A stretch of DNA of 64,000 bases. Source: Octopus sinensis. Its lineage: Eukaryota. The DNA lies in the NCBI RefSeq assembly GCF_006345805.1, contig NC_043009.1:61876001-61940000 (forward strand), written 5' to 3'. Positions 18,401 through 44,628 of this stretch are shown here, in pieces; positions within the stretch are counted from its first letter, which is position 1; the number at the start of each line of letters is the position of its first letter. Made by a program: the position numbers.

Positions 18401-21400
18401 CTTATTAATAGTTTCTACAGTAAAACTATTTTCCAACTTGTGTTTGCCTCTAATTGATATGTCCACATTATAAAGTTTCCTTTCAAAATCATTATCATCA
18501 TCATCATCATCATGTTGTTTTATGGCAAGAAACAAATACTAGTTAGAAAGAACATTTCTTGGATTTTTTCCATTACTTCATTTTTCCTTCTACAGTTGGG
18601 GTATAGTATACTAGAGTAGTTAGTATAGCTACCTGTTTTAATAATGTATCTGTTAAATATATTCTTGATTTCATTTTTTACTATGTTTATGTGGTTAGCG
18701 ATTTCCCTAGTTGGTTTGTTTGGCTTTGAGGTAAATCCAGTATTTAAATTGGTACCATTTGTTTTAAACATGTGTCAGAATTTGAAAGAATAGTTTAGAG
18801 ATGAGATGTATGATGTATCCAGAGATATATAAAATAAAATTACTGACATAAAAATAACAGAGGACTGTGATAATTGGGGAATATTTTATTCCTCTGAAGA
18901 TAGAAATATTATTTAAAAGAAGAACTTGTCTTCCTTACCTTGGTTGGTCAACAATTGTTTGCATTTGACAGAATCTTGCTGTCTTTATAATAAAAATGTT
19001 CAATGGCCCATATATATATACACACACATAAAAAGGCCCTTAAAACTAAAATAACACCTCTCTTACTTTGTATCCTACTTAAGGTTTTCATAGTGGACTT
19101 GCTTTAAAGTGGGCTTGTTGCATTTCAGATTTGAAATATTTTATTGATATGAAATTACATAACTTTCCTTTATATAATGTTCTTTGAAAGTCGAGTTTTT
19201 TTTCCTTTCAAATTATACCTGTATACCTTTAATCAGTTTACTGCCTAGTTCTACCTTATTTTTTAATTAGATTGCATCTAGGTATACCTGATTCTTTAAT
19301 TAGTTCATACCTAGTTACTAGTTATATCTGAACTCTTTACTTAGCTTAAATCTATCTACCTGTTTCTTTACTTAGTTTACTTGGTGTGTAATATAGGCAA
19401 TGGTTTATAATAATTTACAAACTATATCACATTAGCAATACTTGTTTTTCTTTTCTTTTCCTGTCTCTGCAAAATACTCTAATGAAATTGCTATTTATTT
19501 CAAATGCACCTAGGTTGAAGAACTGAAGTGAAACTATCAGACATAATGTTTGTGATATTCAGTTATGGTACATTACATTCTGAGTAGAAATCTTGCTGGG
19601 GTGAATTTTGCCTTTCATCCCTTTGGGGATTGATAAAATCAGGTAGTAGGGGGTTGATGTAATCAATTAAACCTCTCCTCTCAAAAATTGCTGACCTTGT
19701 GCCTAAATTAGAAACCATAATTATTATTATCAATTTAAATTTTTTTGTCTGATATTATTCAACATTGAGAATATCTATTTACTTTATAGCTTTGATTCAT
19801 TTTGTTTTTAGCAATTTGGTGAGGCATGTGTAAACTGTGTGTGCACGTGTGTGTGTGTGAGAGAGATTAGTAATTGAACTAATTAGTAATAAAGCCATTG
19901 TAGCTGATACTCTTTGCCAATTGCTTCAGTGTTTTCTCTTTGGTGACAAACGTGAGACACTTTAAAAAAAATTTGACATCTGTTCCCAAGAATTCTGATT
20001 GTCAGCTGGTATACCATTCTGCCGGTACAATTCCTTCCACTTGTCTTTTAGAGAGATAGTACTGCACTCTGCTGATAGGAATGCTAACTACAGCTGGTTG
20101 AAGGGGACCAAATGCCTTTTGGATTGATACAATTTGGCCCGATTTCAACCAGCTACAGAGTAGCAGTCTTAATGATATTGTGGAGTATAACAAAGATGTT
20201 GGGTGGAGAAAGACGTATGTCAAACAAACACAATGACCTGACATCACCGAGATGACCCTTGCATTTGACAAATTACGTAGACTGAGTCAATGAAGTGATC
20301 GGTTCTTGTTGATAGATCCATTATATTAGCAATATATTAGTGTTGATAGGAAGACATGGGAATGGAGCTGGTCAAGAATCCAAAGGGTTGTTAAAGGGCT
20401 CACAGATATAAAAACCACACAGAACTCCCCTAATCCTCTCACTATTTTAACCGGCATATTTAAGTTAAAATTTAGGATTAGCTCATCTGAAGGATTTCTT
20501 TCTTTAAAGACTCATCTATACATGCCAACATTTTTTTCCTTTTTTTAGGAAAACAAATTAGTAAAGAGCAAATTATAAGGAGAAAAAAAGGGGGTAAAAA
20601 TATCCGAAACAAAGGGCTTCGACAAAGTTAAAGAACAATCGAGAGAGAAATAGAAGAATTTACACAAGAAAACAGCAAAAATACCAAAAGAGAGAGAAAT
20701 AAAAAGGAATATTAGTAGTGACTGAGGCAAGGCAAAAAGTATCAGCTATTGGGCAGGAGTCATTTGGTAAAGCAAAACTGGCAGGTCAGTGCAAGGGACA
20801 AAATTTGCTGATGAATCTGAGACAATCCATTCCTAAGTTCTTTTATGCAGTTCTAGATTTTACCCCTACATTTTTTGTTTTTTAAAGAATTTACCTCAAA
20901 TTTTTGCAACTATCCTCTGCTGTCACATTATGACATAACATTTTTGTTTTGTAGATTTTTCTTTCTCTGTGAAATCTGACTGATTTCATGTGTGTGTATG
21001 TAGATGCCCACATGTGTATATAGATGTCTGTATATATATATGTATGTATATATATATAAAATAAATACATGTGTTTACAAGGAGGTATATGTGTGTGTGT
21101 GTGTATGATTTGAGTTTAATCATCTACATCTGTGAAAGTTAATTATCTTAAATTAAATTCTGGTCTATTTTATATATATTTTTTTGCCTTTTTATTAAGT
21201 AGGGGCCGGGTTATGTTATAGAAGTATTCCTTATTTTTGCTTACAGAGATTAATTTTACAAGGGTTTTCCACACCAAAATCACTCAGTAAAGAAGTTATA
21301 ATTTGATTGAAAAGTTTACCTGTGTATTTGAAAGAAGGCCAGGTGGGTCACTCTTAAAAGAACAAACGTAAATTTAAGGGATCATCTTAAGCTACTTAAC

Positions 21401-41700: not shown

Positions 41701-44628
41701 TATATTTTACCAAAGATCCTGAAAAGTATAGTTTTTTAAAGACAGGGTGAAAAATAATAATAAAAAACAATCAGTTAATTTCAATTAAGTTTATTTTATT
41801 CTTCAGTTGATTATTGTCTGGTATATAAGAATGTTGCAAATAATTAACTTCAAGTGTGTCAAACCTTGAAGTCTATGATTTTTATTGGATGAAAATCTTC
41901 ACTGCCGCCTTTGCTTCTTACCACACTACCCTGAAAAGACTTGATGCCAAGAGAAATGCTAGAAATGAATCATAAAGACATACAGAAAACTCTAAAACAT
42001 TGTGCCGGGTGGAGTAGTAGAAAGAACGAAAACTTCATTGAAATACATCAAACTTTTGAGATGTTCCTTTATAATGAAAACTTCTATACTACATATTGAA
42101 TTTTATTAAAAATGTATTTGCTTAGTGTTAAAGGGAGAATGGAAATGGAAGTAATAATGATGTCTTTTTTTTGTTATAAATCTTTACATTTTTGGCAAAG
42201 ACAGATTCAAAGAATTTCTTTACAACAAAAATCTGCACATAATTTTAACTTCAAATTAATTTCATATGATTTATCTTAAATTTTATATTTTTAAATATTT
42301 CATTGTAGAACTTTTTTTCAAATTTTACATCTTTCTTAACCTACCAACTTTTAATAAAATTCTGAACCCCAAGCATTATTTTAATGAATATAATTAAGTC
42401 ATTTTTTTTTTCTTTAATGACTGATCATCAAATTCTGAACTGTTTGATGGTTCCTTCCTCCTCCCCCCTCTTTATTCTGTTGACTTGAAGAATAAATGGC
42501 AGGAGGAAAATTGGCTGAATCTTCTTAAAACAGTAGCCAGACAATCTATGTCTAAATTTAGATGTATGTAACTTAATCCTGCTAGACACAACTTCATGCA
42601 GAAACCCTGCTACCATCTATATCAGCTTGTGCTACCTAGTCTTGGAATTTCTTCCCCCTCCCTCCTACACACCCTTTTCTTCAGAGTTCCTTCAAATATT
42701 TCATTGTACACTAACTTTTATGCTGACTTTGTGAAGTAGATAAAAAGATAAGAGAGATTAAGCGGGGAAAGAAAAGAGAAAGTTTGTTCTGTTCAAAGAG
42801 GCAATGAAATGGAATTCAAATTCAAATGGTACTGGACTTCAGTGACTGGCATAGAATTTTATTTGGGTTGGGCTATATGTGACCTCTAGCAAATTCTTTT
42901 ACTTCTCAAGTGTAACTTATTCTTTTCAGCATATTTTTAAAGGGATTTTTTTCAATATATCTTTAAATATATTTAACTTATAAAAAAAAAAAACCAGAAG
43001 TTATACCTGAGAAAGTTTTTTTCGATATTTTTTAAATCTTAAATCTAGAATTTTCTCAAAGTAACCAATTGTTGGATTAAAAACTTGTAGTTTCAATATT
43101 AGCATGTAAAATTTCCTATTTGATTTTCTTACTTATTTTTTAGAATTATTTCAGTAAAAGCTTTCCAATTCTTCCATACAAGGTAATAATGACAGAGTAA
43201 GATTGAAGAGAAATTTGTCTACTGAAATGCATCATGGGAGTTCCACATCCAGATTATTGGGAAAGATAAGTGTTCAGTAGCTTTAGAAATTAATTTTTAC
43301 TTCATCTATTTAAACTTTTTTTTCAAGATTAGGAAGTTTGTGAACTTAACTAAACCAAATTAATATAGGCTTAGGAATTTTTTTTTTCAGAATATTGTTA
43401 TACAATACTTTTGATAACTGAAATAAAATATTTTGAAAGTCTTTGAAAAGATTTCTAAATTTTGGCACATAGACACACACACGCATACATTCACACTTTC
43501 TCTCTTCCTCTCATTCTGGTAAAATATTTAAAATGTCTCACAAAATTTTGATTTGTACATAGAGAGTAGCCACATCATCTGTTAAAACTCACCTTATCTG
43601 AGCATAATCTGCTGCAGGGAATTCATGAAGAATATGGATTAGTGATGTATCATAAATTTACCGCTGGAATAGTGGATAACATTGGTGTCGATTGGTTTCA
43701 GTGTTGTTGCACTTCCATGCACAGAGAACATACTTCTTTACATTCCATACTTGGAGTAAATCTATGAGATAGTAAAGAAGAATGTGACTTGTGCACAGCA
43801 AATGAACGTTGTACATCCACTCAGTCTCCGCAATCTTCATTTCGTTTCAATTGTAAATAGTATTACGTACAAGTAAAGGCTACTTGAGTAAAACTTTCAA
43901 TTTAACTTTTGGGTGAGACCAGAAAGGCTTTAGACTCCAGCAACAAGGTTCAGGCTAAAGTGGCAGTGATGAGAATCTTCATTGGTAGCTGCCCCCTAAG
44001 TATGGCTCCTTAAAGCTCCACACTGTATGAAAGCATGAGATAGTTTCACCAATTTCAGTTAAGATGAGATATTCAACTGGTTGGGTCAGCCAATCAGATT
44101 CAATGACAAAGTAGGCAAATCAGAAGGCTTCTGTCTTTTATAAGCTGCTTCTTATACTCTCTTGGTCTGGGTGCCAGCATTGGTTCAGGGTAGGTCCATT
44201 TTGGTGGAAAGGGTGGGCAGCTGGAAAGAAGAAGATCTTTTAAGTCATTGTTGAGTTCAGGTGCATCAAAATGGTATGGCTGCCTGCTCAATGATAAAAT
44301 AACTTTGTAATGAGTGTTTCCCAAGCAAGCGTTGTCCACCCTGTTGGATGGTGAATGAATCGAATCATCAAAATGGTGCTAGACCACAAATGGAAAACTT
44401 TGCTAAATATGGCTAACAATATTCTAACCCATACAGACTACTGATACATCGACTTTGACTTTCGTGGTGGCTGATGGCGGCGGCTTGATGAGGAAGGTGG
44501 AGCTACAGTTGGAGGAAATGAAAAACTGTAGATTTTTTTTACATCTGTTCTTCCTGCCACCCCTACTAGTTCCCCTTCATTTTTTCATATATATATATAC
44601 GATCTATGTACATATGTGTATAATATAT

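What the first reader, a model, noticed from the sequence alone, without database searches (positions are those of the whole stretch)
20082..43794. miR-1/miR-133 muscle microRNA cluster hidden in an ORF-less window, ~23.6 kb apart
Seen: two canonical hairpins on the same (minus) strand, in the order miR-1 then miR-133, with no coding exon between them. Known: miR-1/miR-133 linkage is an ancient bilaterian muscle module, co-transcribed and driven by SRF, MEF2 and bHLH factors in vertebrates. Inference: one long, probably spliced, non-coding transcript spans this transposon-filled interval. The system is known, but this host-gene structure may be unannotated.
Basis: partly seen in the sequence, partly recalled or inferred. 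Interest (0 to 1): 0.85.

Follow-up and report, generated by a model that had tools for sequence, protein, structure and literature searches.

The report
Muscle microRNA pair miR-1/miR-133
Two genuine, deeply conserved muscle microRNA genes (miR-1 and miR-133) lie 23.6 kb apart on the same strand in non-coding, repeat-rich DNA, an arrangement already well known across animals.

Summary
Rfam finds exactly two families above their curated thresholds in the window: mir-1 (43719-43794, minus strand) and mir-133 (20085-20161, minus strand). Both fold far better than shuffles. Both carry the family's mature sequence on the 3' arm. They stand in the canonical order, mir-1 then mir-133, separated by 23,557 nt.

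No coding exon was detected in the spacer. At least 24% of the spacer is tandem or dispersed repeat, but it contains no transposon protein domain.

[quoted passage not shown] Comparable 11.7-34 kb spacers are described in flatworms.

The single long spliced transcript could not be tested, and the sequence gives it no positive support:
- CArG and MEF2 motifs are not enriched.
- AATAAA is in excess on the miRNA-sense strand.
- The opposite strand is the T-rich one in 23 of 24 windows.
- A unique GC/CpG-rich patch lies 2.4-2.9 kb upstream of mir-133.

The cephalopod origin could not be checked. Verdict: real, ordinary, already known.

The parts
43719..43794 (-). mir-1 precursor hairpin
   Evidence: Rfam RF00103, 49.4 bits against gathering score 45.6, E=2.8e-07, full model 1-79. 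Fold -34.8 kcal/mol, z=-5.0, 0 of 200 shuffles as good, 13-nt apical loop.
43726..43747 (-). predicted mature miR-1 (3' arm, 22 nt)
   Evidence: Identical to the Rfam consensus 3' arm over its first 20 nt and different at the last two (alignment). 18 of 22 bases are paired. CNNC motifs start 17 and 20 nt downstream of the 3' end (the motif definition is recalled).
20085..20161 (-). mir-133 precursor hairpin
   Evidence: Rfam RF00446, 65.1 bits against gathering score 55.5, E=9.2e-13, full model 1-74. Fold -39.4 kcal/mol, z=-6.4, 0 of 200 shuffles as good, 13-nt apical loop.
20090..20111 (-). predicted mature miR-133 (3' arm, 22 nt)
   Evidence: Reads letter for letter as the Rfam consensus 3' arm (alignment). 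20 of 22 bases are paired. A CNNC motif starts 16 nt downstream of the 3' end.
20162..43718 (.). 23,557-nt spacer with no detectable coding sequence, at least 23.9% repeats
   Evidence: Among 139 stop-free segments of at least 50 aa between 19 and 46 kb, there is no credible Pfam domain; the best is a low-complexity DUF3439 at E=3.8e-4. TRF tandem repeats cover 11.1% and tandem plus dispersed repeats 23.9%. Three CArG-like and several MEF2-like sites are present but are not more than chance for the window.
22500..23100 (.). unique GC/CpG-rich patch 2.4-2.9 kb upstream of mir-133; candidate internal promoter or regulatory element (inference only)
   Evidence: In a 400-bp sliding scan, its windows hold the top four ranks by GC, and ranks 1-3 and 5 by CpG count. 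GC reaches 0.578 and CpG o/e 0.85, with 21 CpG, against window medians of GC 0.355 and 3 CpG. Whole-window CpG o/e is 0.28. The patch contains a CACGTG site, C-rich tracts and a (GGT)n run (read). Its 134-aa stop-free run on the miRNA strand has no homologue: 181 candidates, none at E<=0.001. It has no Pfam domain. Its hairpins are not better than shuffles on the minus strand.

Best explanation
These are the single-copy orthologues of the conserved muscle microRNA genes Mir-1 and Mir-133, kept in their ancestral tandem arrangement. They are on the same strand, with mir-1 5' of mir-133, and are separated here by a 23.6-kb non-coding spacer swollen by microsatellites and short non-autonomous repeats.

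How it works (inferred from the families, not shown here). RNA polymerase II transcribes the minus strand. Drosha/DGCR8 crops each hairpin, and both have a downstream CNNC motif at the usual distance. Dicer then cuts, and the 3' arms (43747..43726 and 20111..20090) are loaded as the mature miRNAs.

Transcript architecture is open. I put about 0.5 on one primary transcript covering both hairpins, as in vertebrates and Ciona. I put about 0.4 on mir-133 having its own or an additional promoter, for which the GC/CpG-rich patch at 22.5-23.1 kb is the candidate. The rest goes to other arrangements.
For: Identity:
- 2 of 4227 Rfam families pass their gathering score, and they are these two.
- No shuffle folds as well: 0 of 200 for each hairpin.
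- The 3' arms match the family consensus, fully for mir-133 and over 20 of 22 nt for mir-1.
- 20 of 22 and 18 of 22 mature bases are paired, with CNNC at +16 and +17.
- Both hairpins lie in unique sequence, outside the repeat segments listed.
- No further copy was found at E<=1 apart from their own mirror strands (150 of 205 rows were shown).

Arrangement, from passages read:
- Cluster C7 Mir-1 + Mir-133 (10.1101/2021.09.01.458616).
- Flatworm spacers of 11,705-34,008 bp (PMC4405270).
- Human spacers of 3.2, 4.5 and 10.5 kb (PMC3292888, Fig. 2 legend).
- Amphioxus under 800 nt and Ciona under 300 nt (PMC5054118).

Non-coding spacer.

Co-transcription precedent:
- All three mouse loci give bicistronic transcripts (PMC3777988, introduction).
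- Ciona has a single primary transcript (PMC6589888).
Against: - No expression data could be consulted, so neither the mature products nor any primary transcript is shown.
- The mir-1 score is only 3.8 bits above its threshold.
- A basal UG motif is not at the recalled canonical position in either hairpin; the bases at -14/-13 are GA and GC.

Against a single long minus-strand transcript:
- 37 AATAAA hexamers lie on that strand in the spacer, against 23.8 +/- 4.8 expected.
- CArG and MEF2 motifs are not enriched, and no CArG lies upstream of mir-1.
- The minus strand is the A-rich one in 23 of 24 2-kb windows of 1-48 kb.
- In Drosophila and flatworms the widely spaced pair is described as falling outside the polycistronic cluster definition (PMC4405270, discussion).
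Confidence: 0.88

Rival explanations
1. There are two separate transcription units. mir-1 and mir-133 each have their own promoter, and linkage is kept by shared enhancers or simply by position. The GC/CpG-rich patch at 22.5-23.1 kb would be the mir-133 promoter.
For: - The patch is the single most GC- and CpG-rich spot of the window and lies 2.4-2.9 kb upstream of mir-133, between the two genes.
- The spacer is large, at 23,557 nt.
- AATAAA is in excess on the miRNA-sense strand (37 against 23.8 +/- 4.8).
- Widely spaced pairs in Drosophila and flatworms are described as not fitting a polycistronic cluster (PMC4405270, passages).
Against: - Same strand and same order are retained as in chordates, where the pair is bicistronic.
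- The patch is partly low-complexity sequence (C-rich tracts, (GGT)n) and has no tested promoter activity.
- Poly(A) hexamers are common in long introns and do not stop transcription by themselves (general knowledge).
Confidence: 0.4
2. The whole 1-48 kb region is intron of a plus-strand host gene, and the miRNA pair lies antisense inside it. Human miR-1-2/miR-133a-1 lie in the same way on the complementary strand of a MIB1 intron. This reading is compatible with either transcript model for the miRNAs themselves.
For: - With repeats masked, the plus strand has T>A in 23 of 24 2-kb windows across 1-48 kb (spacer -0.067; 1-20084 -0.106). T-runs of at least 6 outnumber A-runs 66 to 30. T-richness of the intron sense strand is recalled general knowledge.
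- The window is strongly CpG-depleted (o/e 0.28). In mosaic-methylated invertebrate genomes this marks methylated gene bodies (recalled).
- Human miR-1-2/133a-1 are 'in a complementary strand of an intron of the MIB1 gene' (PMC3292888, Fig. 2 legend).
- Flatworm miR-133, and in three species miR-1, lie beside Mind bomb genes (PMC4405270).
Against: - No Mind bomb domain, and no host-gene domain of any kind, was found among the 353 stop-free segments of at least 50 aa in the window (139+110+104).
- AATAAA is not depleted on the plus strand beyond composition (20 against 15.2 +/- 3.9), and 5' splice-site hexamers show no asymmetry.
- The genome-wide baselines of skew and CpG for this species are unknown, so both signals may be uninformative.
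Confidence: 0.3
3. The hairpins are chance look-alikes, decayed pseudogenes or repeat-derived hairpins, not functional miRNA genes.
For: - The window is full of strong hairpins. In a 100-nt scan, 552 windows fold at -30 kcal/mol or better. mir-133 is only 26th among the 40 best single-hairpin loci, and mir-1 is not among them.
- mir-1 passes its threshold by only 3.8 bits.
Against: - 30 of those 40 best loci carry at least 26% simple repeat. The many subthreshold Rfam hits (mir-297, mir-466, mir-3149 and others) sit on microsatellites at 57 bits or less against cut-offs of 75-101.
- The two calls rest on family-specific sequence, with E=9.2e-13 and 2.8e-07.
- Their mature arms are intact and lie in unique DNA.
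- They occur together, on one strand and in the canonical order, which chance would not give.
Confidence: 0.03

Closest known systems
Ancestral bilaterian Mir-1/Mir-133 cluster (MirGeneDB sense: loci within 50 kb)
   Same: [quoted passage not shown]
   Different: Nothing in kind. The spacer of 23.6 kb is much larger than in chordates: Ciona under 300 nt, amphioxus under 800 nt, human 3.2-10.5 kb.
[quoted passage not shown]
   Same: The miRNA sites are separated by large spacers of 11,705-34,008 bp, and this one falls within that range. Doubt about polycistronic expression applies equally.
   Different: In flatworms, gene prediction found ORFs in the spacers and Mind bomb genes next to the miRNAs. 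Here no coding segment and no Mind bomb domain was found within the 64 kb.
Human/mouse miR-1-2/miR-133a-1 locus in MIB1
   Same: The pair and its order are the same. It may also share placement antisense to a host intron, which here is suggested only by strand composition. The mouse loci are bicistronic.
   Different: The human spacer is 3.2 kb. Host exons are known there and none is seen here. SRF/MEF2 control is established in mouse (recalled), but the motifs are not enriched here.
Ciona compact bicistronic pri-miR-1/miR-133
   Same: The two families are the same, and in Ciona they are processed from one primary transcript in muscle (PMC6589888 passage citing Kusakabe 2013).
   Different: The spacer is under 300 nt in Ciona and 23,557 nt here. 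A single transcript is not shown here.

Membership tests
mir-133 (Rfam RF00446 / MIR-133) | Covariance-model score at or above the curated gathering score over the full model | tested here: met
   65.1 bits against 55.5, model positions 1-74 of 74, E=9.2e-13.
mir-133 (Rfam RF00446 / MIR-133) | Stable single hairpin with the conserved mature sequence on the 3' arm | tested here: met
   Fold -39.4 kcal/mol, z=-6.4, 0 of 200 shuffles as good. The 3' arm is identical to the consensus. 20 of 22 mature bases are paired.
mir-133 (Rfam RF00446 / MIR-133) | Small-RNA reads from both arms with fixed 5' ends and 2-nt overhangs | not testable with these tools
   No small-RNA data are on hand.
mir-1 (Rfam RF00103 / MIR-1) | Covariance-model score at or above the curated gathering score over the full model | tested here: met
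   49.4 bits against 45.6, model positions 1-79 of 79, E=2.8e-07. The margin is only 3.8 bits.
mir-1 (Rfam RF00103 / MIR-1) | Stable single hairpin with the conserved mature sequence, seed included, on the 3' arm | tested here: met
   Fold -34.8 kcal/mol, z=-5.0, 0 of 200 shuffles as good. The first 20 of 22 mature positions equal the consensus. 18 of 22 bases are paired.
mir-1 (Rfam RF00103 / MIR-1) | Small-RNA reads from both arms; muscle expression | not testable with these tools
   No expression data are on hand. The main text of the octopus miRNA paper has 0 mentions of Mir-1 or muscle, and supplements are closed.
Mir-1/Mir-133 cluster | Same strand, mir-1 upstream of mir-133, within 50 kb | tested here: met
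   Both are on the minus strand, mir-1 at 43.7 kb and mir-133 at 20.1 kb, with a gap of 23,557 nt. The criterion is taken from the PMC12257675 passage.
Mir-1/Mir-133 cluster | Expressed as one polycistronic unit (the conservative cluster definition quoted in PMC4405270) | not testable with these tools
   This needs stranded RNA data. The indirect sequence signals are neutral to unfavourable.
Mir-1/Mir-133 cluster | No protein-coding gene between the two hairpins | tested here: inconclusive
   None of the 139 stop-free segments of at least 50 aa between 19 and 46 kb has a credible Pfam domain. The one long clean run on the miRNA strand has no homologue. Exons under 50 aa were not tested.
Antisense-in-Mind-bomb-intron arrangement (as human miR-1-2/133a-1) | Mind bomb exons flanking the pair on the opposite strand | tested here: inconclusive
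   None of the 353 stop-free segments of at least 50 aa matched a Mind bomb, ankyrin, ZZ or RING family at E<=0.1. An intron could be longer than the window, and short exons would be missed.
SRF/MEF2-driven muscle miRNA locus (as in mouse) | CArG and MEF2 sites in upstream or intragenic enhancers | tested here: not met
   CArG: 3 found against 7.0 +/- 2.5 expected, with none upstream of mir-1. MEF2-like: 18 found against 19.7 +/- 4.4 expected. Consensus counting has low power and single functional sites remain possible. E-boxes were not counted.

The most novel reading that the evidence does not exclude
The pair sits antisense inside a long intron of a plus-strand host gene, possibly the Mind bomb orthologue. 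The nested antisense arrangement seen at human MIB1, and hinted at by Mind bomb neighbours in flatworms, would then be an ancient bilaterian microsynteny rather than a vertebrate accident. The support is the T>A skew of the plus strand in 23 of 24 windows and the strong CpG depletion. No host exon was seen in the 64 kb.
Probability: 0.2. Interest if true: 0.45.

Novelty: already known. Interest (0 to 1): 0.15.

Why it matters
It is a clean positive control for the scan, because a reader without tools found two real miRNA genes to within 3 nt. Biologically it adds one more instance of a textbook cluster. The only open points of some interest are these:
- How a 23.6-kb spacer is transcribed, as one unit or two.
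- Whether the pair is nested antisense in a host intron, as at vertebrate MIB1. That would bear on why this linkage has survived since the bilaterian ancestor.

Tried and rejected
I instead sent the stop-free segments of at least 50 aa and entropy of at least 3.5 bits as alignments scanned member by member. These were 353 of the 570 segments of at least 45 aa. Low-complexity and shorter ones were left out.
2. Extra miRNA candidates:
   - The subthreshold Rfam hits (mir-297, mir-466, mir-3149, mir-1277, mir-568 and others) lie on TA/TG microsatellites far below their cut-offs. Rejected.
   - The hairpins in the GC-rich patch have z=-1.7 and -0.7 on the minus strand, with 10 and 46 of 200 shuffles as good. 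On the plus strand one has z=-2.8. Rejected as composition-driven.
3. The idea that the main repeat family is a tRNA-derived SINE found no support: 0 tRNA genes and no tRNA-like Rfam match in a full copy.
4. CArG and MEF2 enrichment: none.
5. Poly(A)-signal depletion or 5' splice-site asymmetry as a marker of the transcribed strand: none beyond base composition.
6. Basal UG motif: not at the recalled position in either hairpin. The 'apical loop' line picked a side hairpin of the longer fold and is wrong. The 13-nt loops are read.
7. Coding potential of the GC-rich patch: no homologue in the near-length search. The 'longer' and 'shorter' searches were not run.
8. Regex and a first Pfam batch for the mariner remnant found nothing. 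It was then located.
10. Structure, complex and protein-atlas tools were not used, because there is no protein to study.

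
Full report
**1. The observation.**
The window is 64,000 bases without any N. A scan of both strands against all 4227 Rfam families gave exactly two matches at or above the curated gathering scores:
- mir-133 at 20085-20161, minus strand: 65.1 bits against 55.5, E=9.2e-13.
- mir-1 at 43719-43794, minus strand: 49.4 bits against 45.6, E=2.8e-07.

Both matches cover the full model.

Folded with about 15 nt of flank on each side, the two stretches form single long hairpins of -39.4 and -34.8 kcal/mol. The z-scores are -6.4 and -5.0, and 0 of 200 dinucleotide shuffles fold as well in either case. 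Both have 13-nt apical loops.

At E<=1, 205 matches appear, of which 150 were shown. Only these two reach their thresholds. Their plus-strand mirror images score 47.2 and 40.4 bits, below threshold, so the minus strand is the right one. The remaining shown hits are almost all mir-297, mir-466, mir-3149, mir-1277, mir-568 and similar families (plus a few snoRNA/scaRNA models) at 57 bits or less, far below cut-offs of 65-101. All of them sit on TA/TG microsatellites.

**2. Anatomy of the hairpins.**
In the alignment, the 3' arm of mir-133 reads letter for letter as the family consensus. The 3' arm of mir-1 does so for the first 20 of the 22 mature positions.

The predicted mature arms are 20111..20090 and 43747..43726 on the minus strand. 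Of their bases, 20 of 22 and 18 of 22 are paired. A CNNC motif starts 16 nt (mir-133) and 17 and 20 nt (mir-1) downstream of the 3' arm end. That this distance is the usual one for Drosha substrates is recalled, not tested. A basal UG at the recalled position is absent in both.

Stability alone does not single the hairpins out. In a 100-nt sliding scan, 552 windows fold at -30 kcal/mol or better. mir-133 ranks 26th of the 40 best single-hairpin loci, and mir-1 is not among them. Of those 40, 30 carry at least 26% simple repeat. It is the family-specific sequence, not the fold energy, that identifies the two genes.

**3. The surroundings.**
- *Composition.* The window has 35.7% G+C and a CpG observed/expected ratio of 0.28.
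- *Tandem repeats.* TRF lists 79 rows at the default score and masks 11% of the window at a laxer score.
- *Dispersed repeats.* Self-comparison finds dispersed families covering 14.9% of the window and 14.5% of the spacer. The largest family has 34 segments, a second has 7 and a third has 2. The largest is an element of roughly 470 bp with an internal CA/TA tract, for example 25230-25700 and 8493-8910. It has no tRNA-like head.
- *Total.* Repeats together cover 24.0% of the window and 23.9% of the spacer. This is a lower bound, since only families with two or more copies inside 64 kb can be seen.

'Transposon-filled' is therefore only partly borne out.

**4. Coding potential.**
The window has 42 stop-free runs of at least 100 aa, against 8.4 +/- 2.9 in 100 Markov simulations. 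Of these, 32 overlap tandem repeats (at least 15%) or dispersed repeats (at least 30%). The 10 clean ones are what chance gives.

I scanned every stop-free segment of at least 50 aa with sequence entropy of at least 3.5 bits against Pfam. That is 353 of the 570 segments of at least 45 aa.
- 139 segments from 19-46 kb: nothing credible. The best hit is DUF3439 at E=3.8e-4, on a low-complexity run.
- 104 segments from 46-64 kb: nothing, best E=0.0083.
- 110 segments from 1-19 kb: a Mos1/mariner transposase.

I located the mariner remnant on the minus strand. Transposase_1 lies at 8357-8545 (27.3 bits against a cut-off of 24) and HTH_48 at 9340-9495 (20.1 bits, below the cut-off of 24.1). A copy of the main repeat family sits between them.

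No reverse transcriptase, no other transposase and no Mind bomb, ankyrin, ZZ or RING family appeared anywhere. The longest clean run on the miRNA strand inside the spacer (22495-22896, 134 aa) has no homologue. There were 181 word-sharing candidates, and none reached E<=0.001 among proteins of 73-235 residues.

So no coding exon is detectable between the hairpins. Exons shorter than 50 aa cannot be excluded.

**5. The transcript question.**
Nothing here can show or refute a primary transcript. The indirect signals are as follows.
- *CArG boxes:* 3 found against 7.0 +/- 2.5 expected. All three lie in the spacer and none lies upstream of mir-1.
- *MEF2-like sites:* 18 found against 19.7 +/- 4.4 expected.
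- *AATAAA in the spacer:* 37 on the miRNA-sense strand against 23.8 +/- 4.8 expected, and 20 on the other strand against 15.2 +/- 3.9 expected. Neither strand is depleted.
- *5' splice-site hexamers:* 17 and 11 against about 13.6 expected on each strand.
- *AT skew:* with repeats masked, the plus strand has T>A in 23 of 24 2-kb windows from 1 to 48 kb. The exception is 38001-40000. T-runs of at least 6 outnumber A-runs 66 to 30. At 48-56 kb the AT skew vanishes and a GC skew of about +0.15 appears. Intron sense strands are usually T-rich (recalled), so this favours transcription of the plus strand through the region, that is, antisense to the miRNAs.
- *GC/CpG-rich patch:* one patch at 22.5-23.1 kb holds the top four ranks of the window by GC, and ranks 1-3 and 5 by CpG count. 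GC reaches 0.578 and CpG o/e 0.85, with 21 CpG per 400 bp against a median of 3. It lies 2.4-2.9 kb upstream of mir-133, between the two genes. It contains a CACGTG site, C-rich tracts and a (GGT)n run. I offer it as a candidate internal promoter or enhancer. That is inference only.

**6. Comparison with what is known.**
Passages read in the held library:
- They list it as cluster C7 (10.1101/2021.09.01.458616).
- They report bicistronic transcripts at all three mouse loci (PMC3777988) and a single primary transcript in Ciona (PMC6589888).
- They give these spacers:

| Taxon | Spacer | Source |
|---|---|---|
| Ciona | under 300 nt | PMC5054118, |
| Amphioxus | under 800 nt | PMC5054118, |
| Human (three loci) | 3.2, 4.5 and 10.5 kb | PMC3292888, Fig. 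2 legend, |
| Five flatworms | 11,705-34,008 bp | PMC4405270, |

In the flatworms the authors prefer the term 'cluster-like regions' and note Mind bomb genes beside the miRNAs. The same paper says the Drosophila pair escapes the polycistronic cluster definition. Human miR-1-2/133a-1 lie on the complementary strand of a MIB1 intron.

The present locus therefore fits the known kind in every tested respect. Its 23.6-kb spacer is within the range already described for lophotrochozoan-grade genomes.

**7. What stayed unchecked.**
No eukaryotic genome collection, annotation, miRBase or MirGeneDB copy is available. The low G+C, CpG depletion and microsatellite load are not diagnostic.
- *Human origin.* I do not take the window for human. 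The mir-1 hairpin is barely above threshold, and the spacer is more than twice the largest human one.
- *Literature on the transcript.* I found no description of the primary transcript or host gene of this pair in a cephalopod or mollusc. For one search I saw only the listing of 12 of 40 papers. The main text of the octopus miRNA paper PMC9699675 has 0 occurrences of Mir-1 or muscle, and its supplements are closed.
- *How the papers were read.* I read the papers cited here as passages found by term, not as whole texts.

**8. Verdict.**
- The hairpins are real, and I identify them as Mir-1 and Mir-133 with about 0.95 probability.
- The arrangement is the known ancestral one.
- The spacer is non-coding as far as can be tested.
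- A single long transcript is possible, at about 0.5, but unsupported by sequence. A separate or additional mir-133 promoter is a serious rival, at about 0.4.
- The most novel reading left open is an ancient antisense nesting in a host intron of Mind bomb type, at about 0.2.
- Interest is low, because the system is already known.

Noticed in passing
window 8357-9495 (-): A decayed Mos1/mariner-type transposase. Transposase_1 lies at 8357-8545 (27.3 bits, cut-off 24) and HTH_48 at 9340-9495 (20.1 bits, below cut-off 24.1). The two are split by a copy of the main dispersed repeat (8493-8918) and lie next to an 810-bp TA/TG array. This is the only transposon protein signal in the window, and it lies outside the spacer.
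   Followed up: yes
window, 34 segments, e.g. 25230-25700 (+), 8493-8910 (-), 13582-13906 (-), 12813-13118 (-), 37401-37880: The main dispersed repeat family is a non-autonomous element of roughly 470 bp with an internal CA/TA microsatellite. Copies are 75-85% alike. It has no tRNA-like head and no ORF with a Pfam domain. Its class is undetermined.
   Followed up: partly
window 54-227, 31638-31901, 33245-33443, 51144-51231, 55582-55824, 63754-64000: A second dispersed family with 7 segments. At the window's end it forms a 66-bp tandem array (63752-63921, 2.6 copies).
   Followed up: no
window 9645-10455 and 33934-34442: Two very long compound TA/TG microsatellite arrays of about 810 and 510 bp. 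They produce the longest stop-free runs of the window (up to 338 aa) and most of the spurious subthreshold miRNA-family hits.
   Followed up: yes
window 1-48000 versus 48001-56000: The plus strand is T-rich (AT skew negative in 23 of 24 masked 2-kb windows) up to 48 kb. Over 48-56 kb the AT skew vanishes and a GC skew of +0.09 to +0.20 appears. CpG o/e there is extremely low: 0.05, 0.06, 0.17 and 0.00 in the four 500-bp windows of 48.0-50.0 kb. This could be a boundary of a transcription unit or a large old insertion. It is unexplained.
   Followed up: partly
whole window: CpG observed/expected is 0.28 overall, which is very low for an invertebrate-looking sequence. It may mean germline methylation of a gene body, or a genome-wide property. 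The species baseline is unknown.
   Followed up: no
window 22341-22450 and 22561-22680: C-rich and G-rich tracts face each other in the GC-rich patch and give strong hairpins (to -50 kcal/mol on the plus strand). On the miRNA strand these are no better than shuffles (z=-1.7 and -0.7). On the plus strand one reaches z=-2.8, with 0 of 200 shuffles as good.
   Followed up: yes
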